Shown here one piece after another: positions 1-13,239 of a DNA stretch of 13,239 bases. The stretch is from Octopus sinensis (lineage: Eukaryota). Made by a program: the position numbers and the translations under genes. Within the stretch, counting starts at the first letter, position 1; each line of letters starts with the position of its first letter. The notes below the pieces were generated by a model. That model saw only the letters and a list, made by a program, of their open reading frames with translations, was not told the DNA's origin and did no database searches. The stretch lies in the NCBI RefSeq assembly GCF_006345805.1, contig NW_021826178.1, positions 1 through 13,239 of the forward strand, read 5' to 3'.

Positions 1-203
1 CTGTCTAGAGGACGCAACTCGACCTTTTTATCGCCCAAAGGGACAGCTAGGAACATCGTATACACAGAAGTATTCGAGTGAAGAGAAGATATTGCAACCT
101 ACACATGCACCTTCGTTCCCAAGAGGGAAAGGACTAGATTGAGACTAGTCGTTGCCTACTAGGGGCTCTTACATATCCGGGCAATGCCGGGCTATGCTGC
201 TAG
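1..203 (+). mobile_element. Helitron 3' end: C-terminus of RepHel (Pif1-like helicase), subterminal hairpin and CTAG terminus
   Basis: Frame 1, 1-81, reads LSRGRNSTFLSPKGTARNIVYTEVFE*. This matches the LSR end of helicase motif VI and the N-x-V-Y-x-E-V C-terminus typical of Helitron RepHel. A GC-rich hairpin CCGGGCAATGCCGGG (177-191) lies 8 nt before CTAG (200-203), followed by T (expected A|T target). Confidence 0.85.
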
Positions 204-640
204 TATTATATAAAAGAAATGTGACAGAGAGCTGTTTCAGGCAGAATTCTTCATGGAATGGACAAGATGTATTTATTATCATGGCCCCAGCACTATAAAT
301 GTTACTGTCTATCATATGAACCTCTCTTCTACCCAGTATCATTGTTAATTCAGAATAATATCTCCTGTCTTGAATAGATCATTTCTCCTTCAAATTTTGA
401 CGACCGTGTTTGTATGGCCAACATTCGAGATGGATCACCTTCTCTACCATGGAGAGGTCGTGCCTTTGAGGACGGAAGGGGACGGAATAGAGAATAGTGT
501 TTGTTACATAATAATATAACTAAGGGTTACCATTGTGACTGGATCAGGAAATGGTAATGGAGGATGGGGTTGGTAGGTGAGAATTGCGATATAAACAATG
601 TCTGTTTCTGTCTGTCTTTCTCTGTCAGTTTGTCTATTTT

Positions 641-1375: not shown

Positions 1376-1833
1376 TATAATGAATTGGGGAAACGGAGTT
1401 CACGAGAATATGCATCACAACGACCGTTTCGACCCATCTTGCATCGGTCACTTGCGGGTGGGCTACTATACATGTTGTGTTGCATCCTCCAGTGCAGATG
1501 CATCTCATCGGGTGCCTTGTTTTAATGTAAAGATACCTCACTAAATATATTCAGTTTCACTTGACATGTTGTTGCTAGGAGCTTCTTGGATTACAACATG
1601 AGAGACAACAGCCTTCCGGCAACAACAACATTCCAAGCGAACCCGAATATATTTACAGAGGTATCTTCTTTAAAAGAAGACACCCGATGACATGCATCTG
1701 CACCGGAGGATGTATCACAACCAGTTATACAATATCCTACCTGCAAGGGACCGATGCAAGATGGATTGAAACAATCGTTGCGATGAATAAAAATTCTCAT
1801 TAACTCCATTTTCTGCTTCCCTCATTCATTATA
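1376..1833. repeat. Diverged long inverted repeat (arms ~1376-1583 and ~1610-1833, spacer ~26 nt); possibly Penelope-like pLTR-derived
   Basis: Blocks pair by eye, e.g. CCATCTTGCATCGGTC with GACCGATGCAAGATGG; CATCCTCCAGTGCAGATGCATCTCATCGGGTG with CACCCGATGACATGCATCTGCACCGGAGGATG; AAGATACCTC with GAGGTATCTT; TATAATGAAT with ATTCATTATA. The inverted repeat is directly seen; the family assignment is inference. Confidence 0.9.
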
Positions 1834-2017: not shown

Positions 2018-3358
2018 GGGAGGATGATGCCTTGGACGGGAAGAATTACAGAGGTATCAAACTATTAGATGAAGCAATGAAAATTACTCAGGGGGTCACA
2101 GACAAAATAATTAGGATGTGTGTTAGACCAGAAGAGATGCAATTTGGTTTTGTGCCACAGCGAAGCACCTCTGATGCTATATTCCTGGTAAGGCAGCTGC
2201 AGGAGAAGTACCTAGCCAAAGATAAACCCTTGTACATGGTATTTGTTAAACATGGAGAAAGGCTTTGATAGGATCCCTCGATCCCTTATTTGCTGGTCAC
2301 TGCAAAAACTAGGGATGGACGAATGGTTGGTGAGAGCGTTACAAGCCATGTACAGGGATGCTGTCAGTAAGGTGAGGTTTGGCATCGTGTGTAGCAATCA
2401 ATTAGGGTACAAGTAGGGGTTCATCATGGATTAGTCCTCAGCTCCTTCCTGTTTATCAGAGTCCTCCAGGCAATAACAGAGGGATTTAAGATGAACTGCT
2501 TCTAGGAGATCCCCAATGCTGATGACCTTGTTATCATAGCCGAATAACTTTCAGAACTAGGTAAATTTTATGTATATCAGTAAGGACTAGAATCAAAGGA
2601 CCCTAAACTTAGTCTAACAAAAACCAGTCTTAGTAAGTAGGAAAGCGGACAATTCACAAATCCCCTTAGGAAGATGGCACTGTTCGATCTGTAGAAAAAG
2701 CGTAGGTAGGAAGTTCATAAGATGTACCCAGTGTAAGGTATGGACACATAAGTGTTGCAGCAATATCAGAGGAAGGTTAACAGGGATAATAGTTTTTCTG
2801 TGTGGAAGGTGCACAGGTACAATAAACAGCACAAATGTAGAGAAAATAGAGCTATCAATTGCCAGGTAGGTAAGCTACTGGGAGTTGATAGTTTCCGCTA
2901 TCTAGGTGGCCACGTCAGGAGTGTGGTTGGTTGTTCTTTGAGTGTAGCTGCAAGAATAAGAATAAGACGTGCAAAGTTCAGAGTAACCTTAACTCTAATG
3001 GTAACAAAGAGCGTCTCCCTGAGATTGAAAGGCAGACGTTATGATGCCTGTGTGTAAACAACTATGTTACATGTCAGTGAAACATGGGATGTGACCTCTC
3101 TGAGGACTTCCATAGGCTTGAAAGAAATGAAGCCAGAATGCCTCGCTGGATGTACAATGTCAGTGTGCATGTACGACAGAGTATAGGAGTCTTGAGAGAA
3201 AAGATGAGCATTGAAGACATCAAATAGGGTGTGCAAGAGAGACGTCTGCGTTGGTATGGTCTTGCGATGTGTATGGACATGGACAACTGTGTAAAAAGTG
3301 CCGATCTCTAACTGTGGAAGGATCCTTTGGTAAATGAAAACTGAAAGAAGCTTCATAA
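2014..3358 (+). mobile_element. Decayed, 5'-truncated non-LTR retrotransposon (RTE clade) reverse transcriptase fragment
   Basis: Motifs across shifting frames: NYRGIKLL, QFGFVPQRSTSDAIFLVRQLQEK, FDRIPR, VGVHHG..LS..LF, NADDL (YADD-derived, 2515-2529), FRYLG, SETW, RRLRWYG. Multiple stops and frameshifts. Antisense to the host gene. End coordinate approximate. Confidence 0.9.
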
Positions 3359-3361
3359 CAG

Positions 3362-4510: not shown

Positions 4511-4876
4511 GGATGATTCTGTATTTAGCCCAGGGTCGGAGTAAATAGAGAAACTACAAAGGAGAGAGAGTGAGGAAGAAAAAGAGAAAGAGAGAGAAAG
4601 TAGTTCTAGATGGGATGAAAGGAAGAAGAGAGAGGATTTGAACCTGTGACGTTGAGGAAATGGAGAACGAGATGAAGTAAAGAGTCCAGTCAGGCAACAA
4701 CAATAACAATTATGGTGATGATTAATTAATAAAGTAGATTACAGTGCGAAAGAGAGAAGGAAGACAATGACCCCATGGTGGGATTATGACATGAATGACT
4801 GAATGAAAAAGAAACAAACATTATTGAAAACATAAAAGAAACAGATTTGGATATTCCAGATCCAATGGGGACTTAC

Positions 4877-5031
4877 CGCTGAACTGCCACATGCAGTGGT
4901 GTGTCACCTTTGTTGTTCACGACATTGGCATCGATGCCATTGTGACCCAACAACAGCTCGGCAGTGTGCAAGTTTCCCTTATAACAGGCCCGGTGCAGCG
5001 GTGTTTGACCATCTTCATCTCGAGGATTAAC
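4877..5031 (-). CDS. Ankyrin-repeat protein, internal exon 3 of window (phase 0 to 2); not in the ORF track
   Basis: On minus: TTCTTTTCTTCATCAG acceptor, VNPRDEDGQTPLHRACYKGNLHTAELLLGHNGIDANVVNNKGDTPLHVAVQ + CG, then GTAAGT donor at 4876. Two canonical TPLH motifs. Confidence 0.93.
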
Positions 5032-5195
5032 CTGATGAAGAAAAGAATAAAAACATTAAAAATGGTGTCTGAAAGGGGAGTCGGGTGGTGAAGAATTAAA
5101 AGAAAAACTCACAGAAAAAGAGAAGAGAAGGAATGAAAATAATTAAACAGGTGGAATGATTGGGGTGGGGAGTAGGTAATGCAGATTTCTATTGT

Positions 5196-5588: not shown

Positions 5589-5660
<72 letters not shown>
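5589..5660. repeat. (TA)n microsatellite, containing the mariner TA target
   Basis: Direct reading; the mariner TIR begins immediately after TA at 5659-5660. Confidence 0.95.
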
Positions 5661-6669
5661 CGAGGGGCGTTCAATAAGTAATGCCCCTGACCCACTTCCC
5701 ATAGCAGTAGATCAACGAAACTTGGCACAGTTATTAGTCTTTTTCTACATAGGAACCACCCATAGTTACGCATTTCTCCCATCGTTTGATGCGGCTCTGG
5801 AGACCGTTTTTGTAGAAGAACCCAGCTTGGTCCTCCAACCTCAACGTGACTTCAGAAATCAAGGCTGCATCATCTGGGAAACGCTTTCCTTTCAAAAACA
5901 ACTTCATGATTGGGAAGAGGTGAAAATCAGAGGGTGCAAGGTCAGGAAAGTAGGGGGTGGGGGGAGGAGTTCATAGCCATACGCCTGTGCTTCTGATCTG
6001 GCGACAAGCGAGTTGTGGACCGGAGCGTTGTCCTGCAGGAGGAGGATGCCTTTGCTGATCTTGCCCCGCCTCTTGATTTTGATAACTTCTCTTAATTTCC
6101 TCAAAAGTGAAGCATAATAGGCTCCTGCAATTGTGGTACCCTTTGCCAGGAAATCTGTCATCACTATTCCGTCCTGGTCCCAGAAGACTGTGAGCATGAC
6201 CTTGCCAGCGGAGGGCTGCACCCTTGCCTTCTTTGGAGGAGGAGGGTCACGGTGCTTCCACTGCATTGACTGGGCTTTGGTCTCTGGATCATCGTGATGA
6301 ACCCAGGTTTCATCCTGTGTAATCAGTCTTTTGAAAAATTTTGACTCATCTTCTTGGCACATCTCCAAATTCACCCTCGAGCATTCGACGCGTTCTTGCT
6401 TCTGGAAAGGCGTGAGCAACCTGGGAATCCATCTGGCAGACACCTTTTGCATATGCAAATGGGTCATGAATGATAGTTTCCTCAGACCCGGTACTAATCT
6501 TGACCTCATGGGCTATTTGGCGAATAATTATGCGTCGATCTTCCAAAATGGCAGCCTCAACTTGACGGACAGATGCCTCATCAATGGCAGAGGGGGGCGA
6601 CCAGATCTGGGAGCTGTTTCCACAGAGTTCCGACCATGTTTGAATTCACGATGCCAGCGTTTTACAAGG
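5661..6669 (-). mobile_element. Tc1/mariner DD34D mariner element, 5'-truncated, one TIR remaining
   Basis: TA|CGAGGGGCGTTCAATAAGTAATGC terminus, similar to the CGAGGGG start of irritans-subfamily mariners such as Hsmar2. Transposase lies on minus. No second TIR was found in the window. Confidence 0.92.
5734..6668 (-). pseudogene. Mariner transposase remnant with 3 frameshifts and missing N-terminus
   Basis: Motifs KRWHREFKHGR..PRSGRP, WIPRLL (WVPHEL-like), TQDETW, QDNAPVH, YFPDLAPSD (YSPDLAPSD-like), RWEKCVTMGGSYVEKD* with TAA at 5736-5734. 34 residues separate the 2nd and 3rd catalytic D after correcting the frameshift. Confidence 0.92.
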
Positions 6670-7095
6670 GTTAATTGCAACAAATTGCTCAAAACCACAT
6701 ACCGAAAATATTAGGAATAGCAGCCAAATAGATCACTATTTCTCCTACTAAAAAAAAAGTCTCCACAAACAAACAGAATTTGTAACCCGTATATGGTAAA
6801 GAGAAAGAAAACAACGAAATCCCAGCCTATTGGATTAATTATAGACGAATCGTTTCTGGATTAGAATCGAAAGTTCAAGGAAATGAACTTTCGGTTTTAA
6901 ATCAGAAACGATTCGTCTATAATTAATCCAATAGGCTGGGATTTCGTTGTTTTCATTCTCTTTACCATATACGGGTTACAAATTCTGTTTGTTTGTGGAG
7001 ACTTTTTTTTTAGTAGGAGAAAGAGTGATCTATTTGGCTGCTATTCCTAATATTTTCGGTATGTGGTTTTGAGCAATTTGTTGCAATTAACCCTT
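6666..7095. repeat. Near-perfect fold-back palindrome: 212-bp arms (6666-6877 and 6884-7095), 6-nt loop AGGAAA
   Basis: Arms align without gaps (paired coordinates sum to 13761). I count 6 mismatches, about 97% identity. Confidence 0.97.
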
Positions 7096-7203
7096 TATTA
7101 TAATTAATATAATTCTCACCAAATATAGTCTTTTTCATACCGAAAAATCTACTAGGTGAAATTTATCAATTTTATTAAATTAATTATATTTCACCCTTTT
7201 TTG

Positions 7204-7228
7204 TACACACACACACACACACACACAC

Positions 7229-7280
<52 letters not shown>

Positions 7281-7292
7281 CATATACATATA

Positions 7293-7375
<83 letters not shown>

Positions 7376-7396
7376 CTTATTTATATGTGTATATAC

Positions 7397-7436
<40 letters not shown>

Positions 7437-7786: not shown

Positions 7787-7940
7787 CTCAACAGCTTTCT
7801 GTTTCATTATAGCTTTCACACCATCTGTCCATTCCGGAAATGAATCTGCAGCCAAATGGAGAGGAGTACTGCAAAAATTGGTCTTCTCGTTGACATTGCT
7901 GCCCCGAGAGAGTAATAGCTCCACAGCTTGCAGTCGACGC
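7787..7940 (-). CDS. Ankyrin-repeat protein, internal exon 2 of window (phase 2 to 0)
   Basis: On minus: TCTTTTCCTCTCAG acceptor, G + RRLQAVELLLSRGSNVNEKTNFCSTPLHLAADSFPEWTDGVKAIMKQKAVE, then GTTAGT donor at 7786. The first G completes the GG|G Gly codon from the upstream exon. Confidence 0.92.
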
Positions 7941-8010
7941 CTGAGAGGAAAAGATAGAAACAATGACTAATTTACATTAAATATGAAATTATTTTGGCTT
8001 TCAGACGAAA

Positions 8011-8426
8011 CATCATCATCATCATCACCATCATTATCACCTGCACAATTATCATCGCAATCATCATCATCAACATCATAGCCATCGTCATCATTGCCAC
8101 CACCTCCAACATTATCATCATCATCATCACCATCATCGCCATGATCACCATCATCATCATCGCCATCATCATCATCACCATCATTGCTATTATCACCATC
8201 ATCATCATCATCATTCATCACCACCATCACCATCATAATCTCCAACATTAACATAATCAACATTATCATCATCATCTTCATCAACATTCATCGCCACTAT
8301 CATCATAACCATCACCATCGGCATCATCATAGACATCATAACCATCATCAACCTCATCGTATTCATCATCATCATCACCATCATCATTATCATGATCGAC
8401 ATCATCATTATCATCATAATATCGTT

Positions 8427-8463
<37 letters not shown>

Positions 8464-8485
8464 ATCAGCATCATCATCATAATCC

Positions 8486-8528
<43 letters not shown>

Positions 8529-8604
8529 CATCATCGTTATCCTCCTCCTCCTCCTCCTCCTCCTCTCATCATCATCATTATCATCATCATCATCATCCTC
8601 ATCC

Positions 8605-8640
<36 letters not shown>

Positions 8641-8956
8641 CCAACATCATCATCATCATTATCATCATTATCATCATCATCAGCATCATCATCAGCATCA
8701 TCATCCTCATCATCCTCATCCTCATCATCATCATCATCATCCTCATCATCCTCATCCTCATCATCATCATCATCATCATCATCCTCATCATCATCATCAT
8801 CATTATCATCATCCTCATTATCCTCATCATCATCCTCCTCATCATCATCATCAACATCATCATCATCATCATCTTCCATCATCATCATCATCATCATCAA
8901 CATCATCATCAATATTATCATCATCATCTTCATCATCATATTCGTCATCATCATTA

Positions 8957-8987
<31 letters not shown>

Positions 8988-8988
8988 T

Positions 8989-9022
<34 letters not shown>

Positions 9023-9616
9023 CCATTATCATCATCATCATAATCCTCATCATCATCATAATCCTCATAATCATCATCAGCCACAGCATTATCATCATCA
9101 ACATCATCATCATCGTTATCATCATCAACATCATCATCATCGTCATCAGCATCATCATCATCATCATTATCTTCATCAACATCATCATCATCATCCTCAT
9201 CCTCATCATCATCATCATCATCTTCATCATCATTATCATCATCATCATCATCATTATCATCTTCATCCTCATCATCATCACCATCATCATCACCATCATC
9301 ATCATCATCATCATCATCGTCATTATCATCATCAGCATCATCATTATCATCTTCATCCTTATCATCATCACCATCATCATCACCATCATCATCATCATCA
9401 TCATCGTCATTATCATCATCAGCATCATTATTATCATCATCATCATCATCATCATCGTCATTATCATCATCAGCATCATCATTATCATCATCATCATCAT
9501 CATCATCATTATCATCATCACCATCATCAGCTTCATCATCGTCGTCATCATCAACATTCATCGCCACTATAATTATAATCATCATCATCGCCGTCATCAT
9601 CATCATCATCATCATC
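8011..9616. repeat. ~1.6 kb imperfect (CAT)n/(ATG)n trinucleotide array
   Basis: Direct reading; includes a (CCT)n patch near 8541-8565 and several register shifts. Confidence 0.98.
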
Positions 9617-10021: not shown

Positions 10022-13000
10022 TTTTCTCTCTCTCTCTCTCTCTCTTTTCTCTCTTTGTCTCTCACTCTCTTTCTCGTTTTCTTTCCTCTTTCTCTCCTTC
10101 TTTCTCTCTCTATCTCCCTCTTTCATTTCTTTCCTTCTATTTCTTTTCTCACTTTCTCTGTCTTTCTCCTTTTTCTCTCTCTCTTTCTTTCTCCTCTCTC
10201 CGTGTCTCATTTACTCTCTCTCTCTTTTCTCTCTTTGTCTCTCACTCTCTTTCTCGTTTTCTTTCCTCTTTCTCTCCTTCTTTCTCTCTCTATCTCCCTC
10301 TTTCTCCTTTTTCTCTCTCTCTTTCTTTCTCCTCTCTCCGTGTCTCATTTACTCTCTCTCTCTTTTCTCTCTTTGTCTCTCACTCTCTTTCTCGTTTTCT
10401 TTCCTCTTTCTCTACTTCTTTCTCTCTCTATCTCCCTCTTTCATTTCTTTCCTTCTCTTTATTTTCTATCTTTCTCTCTCTTTCCCTTTTTCTTTTCACT
10501 CTTTCTTTCTCTTTCTCTCTCCGTATCTCTTTTACTCTCTCTCTCTTTCTTTTCTCTCTTTTCCCATTTTCCTTTCCTCTCTTTCTCTCTCACATTTCCT
10601 TCCTCTTTCTCTTTTTCTTTTTTCTCTTATCTTTCTCTTTCTCTATTTTTCAAGTTCTCTCTTTCTCTCTCCGTATCTCTCTCTCTTTCATTTCTTTCTC
10701 TTTCTATTCTTACATGCTGTCTCTTTCCCTTTTCTTCTCTCTCTTTCTTTCTCGCTCTCTCTTTTTCCTCTTTTTCTCTCTCTCATCTTTTCTCTCTTTT
10801 TCCATTTTACTTTTCTCTCTTTCTCTCTTTTTCTTTCTCGTTCTGTCTTTTTCCATTTCTCTTTCTTTATCTCTTTCTATTACTTTTTTCTCTTTCTTTC
10901 TCTTTCTGTCTCCTTCAATTTTCCTTTTCTCTCTTTCACCCAACCTTTTTCTCTTTCGTCTCTCTTTCTCTTTAACTTGTCTCTCTTTCTTTGATGCCCT
11001 TTCTCTTTTCCTTTACTCTCTCTTTCTTCTTCATTCCTTCTCTCACATTTTCTTTTCTATCTTTCTCTCTATGTCTCTTACACTTTTTTCTCTCTCTTTC
11101 CTTCCTCTCTCTCTCTTTTCAATCTGTCTTCCTCTCTCTTTCTTTCCCACTCTCTTTTCACTCCTATATTACCCTCTTTCCCTCTCTGTCTCTTTTCTCT
11201 TTCTCTCCCTCTCCTATTCTTATCTGTCACTTTCTTTTGACCCCTTTCCCTCTTTCTTTCTCCCCATCTCTTTTTCTCTTCTCTCCTTCTCTCCCGCTCT
11301 TTTACCTTTCTCTCCTGCTTTACTTTTCTCTCTTCTTTATCTCTCTCCTTTTCTTTTCCTTCTTTCTCTCCCCTTATTCGCTTCCTTTCATCTCTCTCCT
11401 TCTTTTCTCTCTTCCTCCCTCTCCCTCTCTTTCTTTCTGTCTCTTTGTCATTTCCTTTTTCTCTTCTTTCCCTTTTTTCCTTTTCTCCCTTTAAGGGACT
11501 TACTTTTTTCTTTTCTCTCCTCTCTTGCCTTCTCACTTTCTATTCTCTCTTTCTCCCTCTTTCTTTTCTCTCATTCTCTTTATCCCTTTTACGTCTCTTT
11601 TATCCCTCTCTTTCTCATTTCTCTCTCCTTCAGTGTTTGTCTTTCCTCTTTCTTCCTCTCTCTCTCTCCCATCTTCTCTCTTTATTTCTCTCAGTACCTT
11701 TTTCTTCTCTTATCTTCCATCTTACTCTCTTCCTCTCCTTCTTTCTCTTTTACTATTCTCTCTCTCTCCCTCCCTGCTTCTTTTCTCACTCTTTTTATTT
11801 TCTGGTTTTCCTTCTCCCTATCTCTCTTTATCTTTTCCTTTTCTCTCTTTCTCTCTCTGTTTCCTTTCTCTCTCTCTCTCTCTCTTCTTTCTTTTCTCTC
11901 TTTCGCTCGTTTTCTTTGTCTGTTCTCTCTTACTCTCTCATTTCCTCATTGTCTTTCTCTTTTTCTTTTCTCTCTATCTCTCTTTCTTTTTCTCTTTCTC
12001 TGTTCCTCTCATCTCTTTTTCTCTCCCTCTTTCTTTTCTCGCACTCTCACTTTTATCTCCTCTCCCTCCTTCTCGTTTTCTTTTTATCCTTCTTCCTCTC
12101 TCTCACTCTTTCATTTCTCTCTTTCTTCCTCTCGTTTCTTTTTCTCTCTCTTTTTCCTTTCTCGCTCTCTCACTTTTTTCTCCTTCTTTCTCCCTCTCGT
12201 TTTCTTTTTATCCTTCTTCCTCTCTCTCACTCTTTCATTTCTCTCTTTCTTTCTCTCATTTCTTTTTGTCTCTCTTTCCCTCAGGCATTTTTCTCCTTCT
12301 TTCTCCCTCTCGTTTTCTTTTTATCCTTCTTCCTCTCTCTCACTCTTTCATTTCTCTCTTTCTTCCTCTCGTTTCTTTCTCTCTCTTTCCTTTCTCGCTC
12401 TCAGGCTTTTTTCTCCTTCTTTCTCCCTCTCGTTTTCTTTTTATCCTTCTTCCTCTCTCTCACTCTTTCATTTCTCTCGTTCTTCCTCTCTTTTCTTTTT
12501 CTCTCTCTCTTTCGTTTCTCGCTCTCTCACTTTTTCTCCTTCTTTCTCCCTCTCGGTTTCTTTTTATCCTTCTTTCTCTCTCTCACTCTTTCATTTCTCT
12601 CTTTCTTCCTCTCGTTTTGTTTTCTCTCTCTTTCTTTTCTCGCTCTCTCACTTTTTTCTCCTTCTTTCTCCCTCTCGGTTTCTTTTTATCCTTCTTCCTC
12701 TCTCTCACTTCTCTCTTTCTTCCTCTCGTTTTGTTTTCTCTCTCTTTCTTTTCTCGCTCTCTCGCTTTTTTCTCCTTCTTTCTCCCTCTCGTTTTCTTTT
12801 TATCCTTCTTCCTCTCTCTCACTCTTTCATTTCTCTCTTTCTTCCTCTCCTTTCTTTCTCTCTCTCCTTCCTTTCTCGCTCTCTCACTTTTTTCTCCTTC
12901 TTTCTCCCTCTCGTTTTCTTTTTATCCTTCTTCCTCTCTCTCATTCTTTCATTTCTCTCTTTACTCTCTCGTTTCGTTCTCTCTCGCTTCTTTCTCCTTC

Positions 13001-13239
13001 TTTCTCCCTCTCGTTTTCTTTTTATCCTTCTTCCTCTCTCTCACTCTGTCATTTCTCTCTTTCTCTCTCTCGTTTTCTTTTTTCAATCTCATTCTCTTTA
13101 TCTTTTCTCTCCTTTTCTCTCTCTCTTTCTCTGTTTCGTTTCTCTTTTTGTCCTCTTTATAGTTCGCTCTCACTTTTCCTTTTCTTTCTTCTATTTTTCT
13201 CTTCCTCTCTTCTTTTTTCTCTTTCTTTTTCTTTCTCTC
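10022..13239. repeat. >3.2 kb C/T-rich (GA-rich on the transcribed strand) low-complexity tract with internal higher-order repeats
   Basis: Almost pure pyrimidine on +; runs to the window end. Confidence 0.97.
12030..13075. repeat. ~120-bp minisatellite, about 9 copies, within the CT tract
   Basis: Landmark TTTTTATCCTTCTT recurs with its A at 12086, 12210, 12323, 12443, 12566, 12688, 12802, 12924 and 13024. Confidence 0.9.

What the first reader, a model, noticed from the sequence alone, without database searches (positions are those of the whole stretch)
6666..7095. 430-bp near-perfect palindrome folded back at a hammerhead-like RNA hairpin
Seen: 4 of the 6 arm mismatches cluster within 20 nt of the loop, and 3 of those 4 are G-U wobbles on the + strand. 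The centre thus looks like a pre-existing RNA hairpin, while the outer ~190 bp are a recent copy. The hairpin is immediately followed by GAAA-C-GAUUC-G-UC (6905-6917), which matches the 3' half of a hammerhead with a GUC site. The position where CUGANGA should be is occupied by the inverted copy. The right arm continues ~100 nt further without a partner. Inference: cDNA of a Penelope-like/retrozyme pLTR self-primed on ribozyme stem II and copied back. This would be a mechanism generating long intronic dsRNA or cruciform DNA. The GAAACRRT(T)CGT motif is shared with the fold-back at 1376-1833.
Basis: partly seen in the sequence, partly recalled or inferred. Interest (0 to 1): 0.75.

Follow-up and report, generated by a model that had tools for sequence, protein, structure and literature searches.

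The report
Head-to-head retrozyme insertion, broken ribozyme
This palindrome is one back-to-back insertion of a common 559-base, protein-free jumping repeat whose other copies carry a predicted self-cutting RNA (a hammerhead ribozyme with a swapped core pair); it was likely pasted in by a Penelope-type enzyme copying the RNA from both ends of a DNA cut, and here the junction removed half of the ribozyme.

Summary
The palindrome is real (212-bp arms, six mismatches as stated). It is one insertion of a dispersed ~559-nt non-coding repeat, inherited by 17 paralogous places of an ankyrin-gene duplication. No copy has CTGANGA (0 of 54), and the central hairpin is not a native stem (1 of 96 insertions). 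Intact copies read stem I / TTGACAA / stem II / A / GAAA / stem III / GTC: a type I hammerhead with the published U3-A8 swap plus an extra A. Covariation supports the fold, and a ~70% identical sister family has a canonical core at the same place. 51 of 96 insertions are head-to-head. In 31 of 32 with both ends at fixed sites, one arm ends at site A and the other at site B. In 22 of 51 each arm holds sequence the other lacks, so twin priming fits better than fold-back. Later arm homogenisation, a loop flip and deletions explain the mismatch pattern. Cleavage, RNA circles and the partner enzyme are unshown. This scan already noted such two-armed retrozymes on other DNA. Verdict: new member of a known kind.

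The parts
6666..6877 (-). Left (inverted) arm: unit positions u239-452 read on the minus strand; 16 nt shorter than in intact paralogs, which end at fixed site A (u468) inside (TA)n
6876..7205 (+). Right (forward) arm: unit u231-558, ending at fixed site B (...TTCACCCTTTTTTGTA) next to the microsatellite
6876..6878 (+). Remnant C7-A8-A9 of the hammerhead core; the junction with the inverted arm removes U3-A6 and the 5' strand of stem I
6877..6884 (+). Centre AAGGAAAT (6-nt loop plus closing pair); reads the other way round in 7 of 12 paralogs examined
6879..6903 (+). Native stem II: GGA / AAT internal loop / GAACT-TTC-GGTT(C) / TAA / (TCC); three substitutions in this copy
6904..6917 (+). Extra A, GAAA, short self-complementary stem III, GTC; predicted cut after 6917
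6918..6929 (+). 3' strand of stem I (TATAAT-TAA-TCC), without its partner in this copy
7096..7205 (+). Part of the right arm without a partner: last 16 nt before site A, then the ~95-nt segment between sites A and B with a 16-bp hairpin before ACCCTTT
7205..7434 (.). (CA)n/(TA)n microsatellite target
5660..6669 (-). Neighbour: truncated mariner-type transposon joined to the shortened left arm over about 4 shared bases, in this paralog only
   Evidence: (loose ends at 6669); transposase motifs recognised from memory

Best explanation
The palindrome is one head-to-head insertion of a ~559-nt protein-free repeat that carries a predicted type I hammerhead ribozyme, and it likely arose when a Penelope-like reverse transcriptase/endonuclease cut a TA microsatellite and primed cDNA from both DNA ends at two fixed sites on the repeat's RNA. 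Shown: family membership, the 559-nt circularly permuted unit, two fixed outer ends, the one-end-at-each-site rule, variable inner ends, arms longer than a unit, microsatellite targets, the conserved hammerhead fold, and loss of the ribozyme's 5' half at this junction. Inferred: the RNA template is a partly self-cleaved multimer or a circle; the two cDNAs (from site B and site A) both stopped near u231-239 and were joined through the short GTTC/GAAC complement; a PLE protein works in trans. After insertion the host segment was duplicated, and arm-to-arm conversion or polymerase template switching likely homogenised the arms in some lineages, flipped the loop once and deleted stems in others. 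The window copy would be catalytically dead and has no evident function; host pre-mRNA read from the minus strand would carry a 212-bp hairpin as a by-product.
For: Dispersed family, 1724 first-look candidates. Period 556-559 tandem and circular permutation. 210 loci = 120 places = 96 independent insertions; 51 two-armed, 43 single, 2 other. Outer ends: 47 segments end exactly at u468 and 31 at u5. Both ends at fixed sites in 32 of 51: 31 A+B, 1 B+B, 0 A+A; 18 have one end off-site and 1 both. Single-orientation copies end at A in 20 and B in 19 of 43, so A is a priming site by itself. 22 of 51 have 20 nt or more in the shorter arm absent from the longer. 20 arms are 568-1370 nt, longer than a unit. 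Both flanks are alternating microsatellite in 34 of 51. Near-symmetric junctions (within 20 nt) 8 of 51 against 4.8 by permutation, p 0.10, so this symmetry needs no special route. Hammerhead: 96.4% of 730 cells paired, 3 pairs with two-sided changes, 5/500 shuffles as high. RNAalifold found stems I and III unprompted. A sister family (66-79% identical) has CTGAAGA, stem I ACTGTA/TACAGT and the same AAT/TAA loops at the homologous place. One full unit folds at z = -7.0. Inner ends at u273-277 (predicted cut u274/275): 7 of 69 against 2.0 expected, p 0.004; 3 of 5 arms that reach a second ribozyme stop at u269-277. The genome holds 780-aa RT + GIY-YIG ORFs with a U3-A8 hammerhead in the 3' end and TA-repeat ends. 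Literature: inverted 5'-truncated copy, one-sided tail and (TA)n targets (PMC8557442); two internal RT start sites, both strands cut and extended, predicted dimer (PMC11167929); U3-A8 core (PMC4209133).
Against: No autonomous element shares sequence with the unit among 50 PLE loci (30 of 147 GIY-YIG matches plus 20 wider stretches). At this locus alone the left arm is contained in the right arm, so fold-back cannot be excluded here. The core departs from consensus twice (U3-A8; 3-bp stem II base with an extra A before G12), and RNAalifold prefers another stem II register, so the ribozyme may be weak or dead. The excess of ends at the cut is soft: neighbouring bins are also high (5 and 4), the sequence is AT-rich microhomology, 2 of the 4 exact u275 starts abut TA repeats, and a second hotspot at u359-378 has no ribozyme. 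Covariation rests on few events among related copies. Loci are the best-scoring hits of seven queries, not a random sample, and duplicates were removed partly by hand.
Confidence: 0.74

Rival explanations
1. Fold-back at this locus: a single cDNA primed at site B stalled at u231, folded on the 4-bp GTTC/GAAC complement, copied itself and joined the target at the AT-rich site A.
For: Left arm is contained in the right arm, junction nearly symmetric; both arms share 3 rare alleles; near-symmetric cases are slightly above permutation (8 against 4.8).
Against: The native RNA has no such hairpin; 22 of 51 family inversions cannot be self-copies; site A is an independent end site in 20 of 43 single copies; the excess of symmetric cases is not significant (p 0.10).
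Confidence: 0.14
2. A DNA-level mobile element (Helitron/Helentron-type rolling circle, or a foldback MITE) made the tandem and inverted copies; the hammerhead likeness is incidental.
For: Rolling-circle copying also gives more-than-unit tandems (general knowledge, recalled); AT-rich targets.
Against: Fixed 3' ends with ragged 5' ends; 43 of 96 copies are not palindromic, no fixed terminal inverted repeats; hammerhead fold kept with changed letters in a sister family.
Confidence: 0.05
3. Assembly or long-read fold-back artefact.
For: The paralogs lie on small unplaced contigs with indel errors; polishing can homogenise repeats.
Against: Same junction in 12 or more separately assembled places whose flanks differ by 3-6%; left arm ends at the family's site A; loop orientation follows the flank tree; junction words present in two public short-read runs.
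Confidence: 0.03
4. The palindrome is kept by selection as an intronic double-stranded RNA regulating the ankyrin host gene (editing, splicing or small RNA).
For: It lies between ankyrin exons of a minus-strand gene; arms are kept alike in three paralogs.
Against: 7 of 17 paralogous places have lost part or all of the stem; homogenisation is an expected mutational outcome (PMC8604942 abstract).
Confidence: 0.04

Closest known systems
Metazoan non-LTR retrozymes (Cervera and de la Pena 2020, PMC7229834, passages seen; Li, Clavereau, Pollet 2026, 10.64898/2026.07.22.740005, parts 1 and 3 of 5 seen)
   Same: Non-coding, low-GC unit with one type I hammerhead, tandem and monomer copies, strongly folded RNA, proposed dependence on PLEs.
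   Different: Unit of 559 nt against ~220-390 nt in the passages read; mostly dispersed and often head-to-head (the word 'inverted' does not occur in PMC7229834); U3-A8 core with extra A; circles and cleavage not shown here.
Penelope-like element insertions with inverted 5'-truncated copy and one-sided tail (Craig et al. 2021, PMC8557442, 12 passages seen)
   Same: Partial tandems, adjacent inverted copy, extension at one end only, (TA)n targets.
   Different: No ORF; the 'tail' between the two end sites is about 95 nt, not 30-40; the A+B pairing rule is counted here.
Poseidon PAc mechanism (Frangieh et al. 2024, PMC11167929, parts 1-2 of 4 seen)
   Same: Two internal RT start sites, AT-rich targets, both strands cut and extended, predicted dimer.
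   Different: There the template is the coding element and no head-to-head product is analysed in the parts read; the partner of this family is unknown.
Cercyon PLE hammerhead variant U3-A8 (Cervera and de la Pena 2014, PMC4209133, parts 1-2 of 4 seen)
   Same: U3-A8 in place of C3-G8; short palindromic stem III suggesting dimer cleavage; G10.1-C11.1.
   Different: There the unpaired base is 5' of stem II (between 9 and 10.1); here it is 3' of stem II, before G12, and stems I and II both carry 3x3 internal loops.
L1 twin priming (Ostertag and Kazazian; recalled, not read)
   Same: Second target strand primes on the RNA, giving an inversion joined by microhomology.
   Different: L1 arms cover different parts of a linear RNA; here arms overlap and both start at fixed internal sites.

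Membership tests
Type I hammerhead ribozyme | Core CUGANGA | tested here: not met
   0 of 54 family copies; TTGACAA in 43 of 49. The U3-A8 swap is a published natural variant (PMC4209133); the sister family has CTGAAGA.
Type I hammerhead ribozyme | GAAA and NUH cleavage triplet | tested here: met
   A-GAAA in 44 of 49, GTC in 43 of 49; window 6905-6917
Type I hammerhead ribozyme | Stems I, II, III around the core, kept by covariation | tested here: met
   for intact copies; in the window copy stem I lacks its 5' strand
Type I hammerhead ribozyme | N11.1 directly followed by G12 | tested here: not met
   One extra base, mostly A; sister and third families have a fourth stem II pair at this place
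Type I hammerhead ribozyme | Self-cleavage | not testable with these tools
   Indirect only: 7 of 69 inner ends at u273-277 against 2.0 expected
Non-LTR retrozyme | Non-coding unit with one hammerhead per repeat | tested here: met
   No long ORF in six frames; one descriptor hit per unit
Non-LTR retrozyme | Tandem or more-than-unit genomic copies | tested here: met
   20 arms of 568-1370 nt; L029 and L035 hold two ribozymes in tandem
Non-LTR retrozyme | Expressed as linear and circular RNA | not testable with these tools
   No RNA holder on record and contigs only
Penelope-like element insertion | 5' truncation, partial tandems, adjacent inverted copy, one-sided tail, microsatellite target | tested here: met
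Penelope-like element (autonomous) | RT + GIY-YIG ORF or pLTR shared with an autonomous element | tested here: not met
   No ORF; no similarity to 50 PLE loci, a small part of 5029 candidates
MITE / foldback DNA transposon | Fixed terminal inverted repeats in all copies | tested here: not met
   43 of 96 copies single-oriented; inner junctions vary

The most novel reading that the evidence does not exclude
The family's ribozyme is an active hammerhead with a doubly altered core (U3-A8 plus a base bulged between stem II and the general base G12, braced by twin 3x3 loops in stems I and II), and a dimeric Penelope-type enzyme primes both ends of a DNA break at two stem-loop/ACCCUUU signals about 95 nt apart on one partly cleaved multimeric RNA. 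That would explain the unsolved tandem/inverted structure of Penelope-like insertions and make small retrozymes a steady source of long intronic hairpins.
Probability: 0.33. Interest if true: 0.62.

Novelty: new member of a known kind. Interest (0 to 1): 0.37.

Why it matters
Craig et al. 2021 (PMC8557442) call the formation of tandem/inverted PLE structures and microsatellite bias unexplained. This small family gives a countable rule (one arm at each of two fixed sites, 31 of 32) that fits the two RT start sites seen in vitro for PAc and names a 559-nt template to test. The paralog series also records what happens to a long palindrome afterwards: homogenisation, a loop flip and stem loss. The locus itself is a dead copy, each ingredient has a published precedent, and this scan has noted the same insertion pattern in several other families, so the gain is incremental.

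Tried and rejected
Rfam found no hammerhead in the window or in 8 family loci; only below-threshold miRNA-like matches. CTGANGA upstream of the hairpin: absent. Coding capacity of the unit: only short frames. Partner search: GIY-YIG loci scanned by blastn, a descriptor and model R1; one model hit (L228, E 0.06) lay in an inverted RT piece and was dropped, and the one strong blastn hit (L248) was a sister-family insertion. The genome could not be searched whole with the RNA model, so distant relatives and the true partner may be missed. Expression: no RNA holder listed; of two guessed RNA runs one gave 0 and one 2 contigs, no evidence either way; editing and small RNA untested. Unitigs over 6500-7235 did not span the palindrome. 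Two-template origin of the arms: arm differences at common polymorphisms are 20 against 6.2 expected in 34 insertions, mostly L011, L147 and L029; the window has 1 of 6, undecided. Automatic removal of duplicates over-merged (48 and 85 groups) and was replaced by coordinates plus inspection; 24 of 120 places were dropped as paralogous duplicates. L005 was left out of the reading of the flank tree because its flank is unrelated there. Link to 1376-1833 rejected. Paper searches for precedent: 'twin priming'+'Penelope' 3 listings, none on this by title or abstract start; 'octopus'+'retrozyme' 2 listings; an extra base before G12 was not found in the passages of PMC3088659, PMC6155905 and PMC4918200 or the listing. 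Subscription papers and supplements (such as the hammerhead alignments of PMC4209133) were not seen and may hold it.

Full report
Observation. The arms 6666-6877 and 6884-7095 are 212 nt and 97% complementary. The window is the whole of contig C2649 of a 2.72-Gb animal genome, called octopus-like in earlier scan notes. The palindrome lies between ankyrin-repeat exons of a minus-strand gene (Pfam hits at 726-899, 4876-5040, 7790-7960), with a truncated mariner-type element on the left (motifs recalled) and a CA/TA microsatellite on the right.

The family. A search with 6857-7200 gave 1724 first-look candidates, 40 scored. Mapping loci on each other showed a ~559-nt unit that occurs in tandem and circularly permuted, without a long ORF. 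Seven DNA searches gave 210 loci at 120 places. I dropped 24 places as paralogous duplicates, 16 of them copies of the window's own insertion, leaving 96 independent insertions. These are top-scoring hits, not a random sample.

No copy has CTGANGA within 70 nt upstream (0 of 54), and the left stem precedes AAGGAAATG only in this insertion. Intact copies read GGA-AAT-ATTATA / TTGACAA / GGA-AAT-GAACY-loop-GGTTC-TAA-TCC / A / GAAA / CGA(A)TTCG / TC / TATAAT-TAA-TCC. That is a type I hammerhead with U3-A8 in place of C3-G8, a variant described in Cercyon PLEs (PMC4209133), plus one extra base before G12. On 35 distinct rows 96.4% of cells pair, three pairs change on both sides, and 5 of 500 shuffles reach the pairing level; the tool warns that relatedness inflates this. 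RNAalifold returned stems I and III unprompted but another stem II register. The stronger support is comparative. A sister family, 66-79% identical over u271-570, gave four model hits in 25 loci. Two of them parse with canonical CTGAAGA, stem I ACTGTA/TACAGT or ACTGTG/CACAGT, a four-pair stem II base and the same AAT/TAA loops; a third has TTGAAGA. Two further loci (L260, L271) show the same loop design with CTGACGA. In the window the junction falls at 6875/6876, inside the core, so both arms lack U3-A6 and the 5' strand of stem I: this copy would be dead.

How the inversion forms. Of 96 insertions, 51 are head-to-head, 43 single, 2 other. Outer ends pile up at two sites: 47 segments end at u468 (site A) and 31 at u5 (site B). 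Where both ends are at fixed sites, 31 of 32 pair A with B; 19 other insertions have one or both ends elsewhere. Single copies end at A (20) or B (19) equally. In 22 of 51 the shorter arm holds 20 nt or more that the longer lacks, so neither is a copy of the other. Twenty arms are longer than one unit. Each end site lies just 3' of a stem-loop closed before ACCCTTT (strong at B, z -4.7; weak at A). Symmetric junctions like the window's are 8 of 51 against 4.8 by permutation (p 0.10). I infer priming from both ends of a cut TA tract by a PLE-type enzyme. This matches the inverted copy, one-sided tail and TA targets of PLEs (PMC8557442) and the two internal start sites, two-strand extension and predicted dimer of PAc (PMC11167929). 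Fold-back at this one locus is not excluded, because its left arm is contained in the right.

Is the ribozyme active? Inner ends fall at u273-277 in 7 of 69 arms at risk against 2.0 expected (p 0.004), and three of five arms that reach a second ribozyme stop at u269-277. Against this, the neighbouring bins are also high, the site is AT-rich, and a second hotspot at u359-378 has no ribozyme. This is suggestive only, and favours partly cleaved linear multimers as at least some templates. One full unit folds far better than shuffles (z -7.0).

Partner. The genome has young RT + GIY-YIG ORFs of 780-781 aa; six places of this family carry a TTGATAA (U3-A8) hammerhead in the 3' end, and the copies read end in TA repeats about 70 nt further on. 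None of the 50 loci shares sequence with the unit, so the partner is unidentified.

Later history. Seventeen places share this insertion; two lie 9.6 kb apart on C4566. Ten keep both arms; seven have lost part of an arm or keep only the tail. The centre reads AAGGAAAT in 5 and ATTTCCTT in 7 of 12 examined, and the centre mismatches are present in some, corrected to one arm in others. Without L005, whose flank is unrelated there, the three other unflipped copies in the tree group at 88/91 support, so one flip suffices. Flanks differ from the window by 2.8-6.3%. Outer arms differ at 2 of 161 sites in the window, 1 of 161 in L003 and 2 of 133 in L006, but at 4-8% in five others. The arms are therefore old and were likely homogenised, which template switching between imperfect inverted repeats is reported to do along with spacer inversion (PMC8604942, abstract). 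Short-read polishing could mimic part of this. Unitigs of two public runs cross the junction exactly, with the limits given in the observation check.

Comparison and verdict. It works like a metazoan non-LTR retrozyme inserted in PLE fashion (PMC7229834; 10.64898/2026.07.22.740005). It meets the sequence criteria that can be tested, fails the strict core consensus twice, and lacks proof of cleavage or circles. My reading was formed before the look-ups. The scan's earlier AI notes describe the same two-site head-to-head pattern for other families in this genome and U3-A8 retrozymes in other genomes; no note matched this family by sequence. New member of a known kind; interest 0.37.

Noticed in passing
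window 1376-1833: Imperfect (73%) fold-back unrelated to the palindrome; about 30 near-identical copies in the same duplicated gene family and dispersed 77-83% two-armed copies; likely an old MITE.
   Followed up: partly
L248:2692-2876 and L276-L300: Sister retrozyme-like family (1938 candidates) with a canonical core, long stem II and similar two-ended head-to-head insertions.
   Followed up: partly
L260:5489-5595, L271:4928-5035: Third hammerhead type with the same internal loops in stems I and II, core CTGACGA.
   Followed up: partly
L257:1253-4270, L260:1532-4960: Young PLE family, 780-aa RT + GIY-YIG ORF preceded by an overlapping upstream frame, U3-A8 hammerhead in the 3' end; L257 and L260 have different 3' UTRs behind near-identical ORFs.
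   Followed up: partly
contigs C2649, C13178, C11012, C4566, C8194, C1030 and others: The host ankyrin-repeat segment is present in 30 or more copies at 96-99% identity; a second independent insertion of this family (L011 group) lies on some of the same contigs.
   Followed up: partly
L011, L147: The two arms differ at several common family polymorphisms (4 and 7), as if copied from two different RNA units.
   Followed up: partly
unit u359-378 (window about 7000-7020): Second hotspot of inner junctions at a short TACTAGTA palindrome after a T run.
   Followed up: no
L003:700-1265: A piece resembling the 3' UTR of the L260-type PLE lies inverted in the TA tract beside the left arm of this paralog only (matched by eye).
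   Followed up: no
window 1-205: Short hairpin followed by CTAGT, resembling a Helitron 3' end (recalled motif).
   Followed up: no
window 2020-3360: Decayed RTE-like LINE fragment on the plus strand (recognised from memory).
   Followed up: no
window 8011-9616 and 10024-13149: Very long (CAT)n tract (533 copies) and a 3-kb CT-rich array with a 122-bp period.
   Followed up: no
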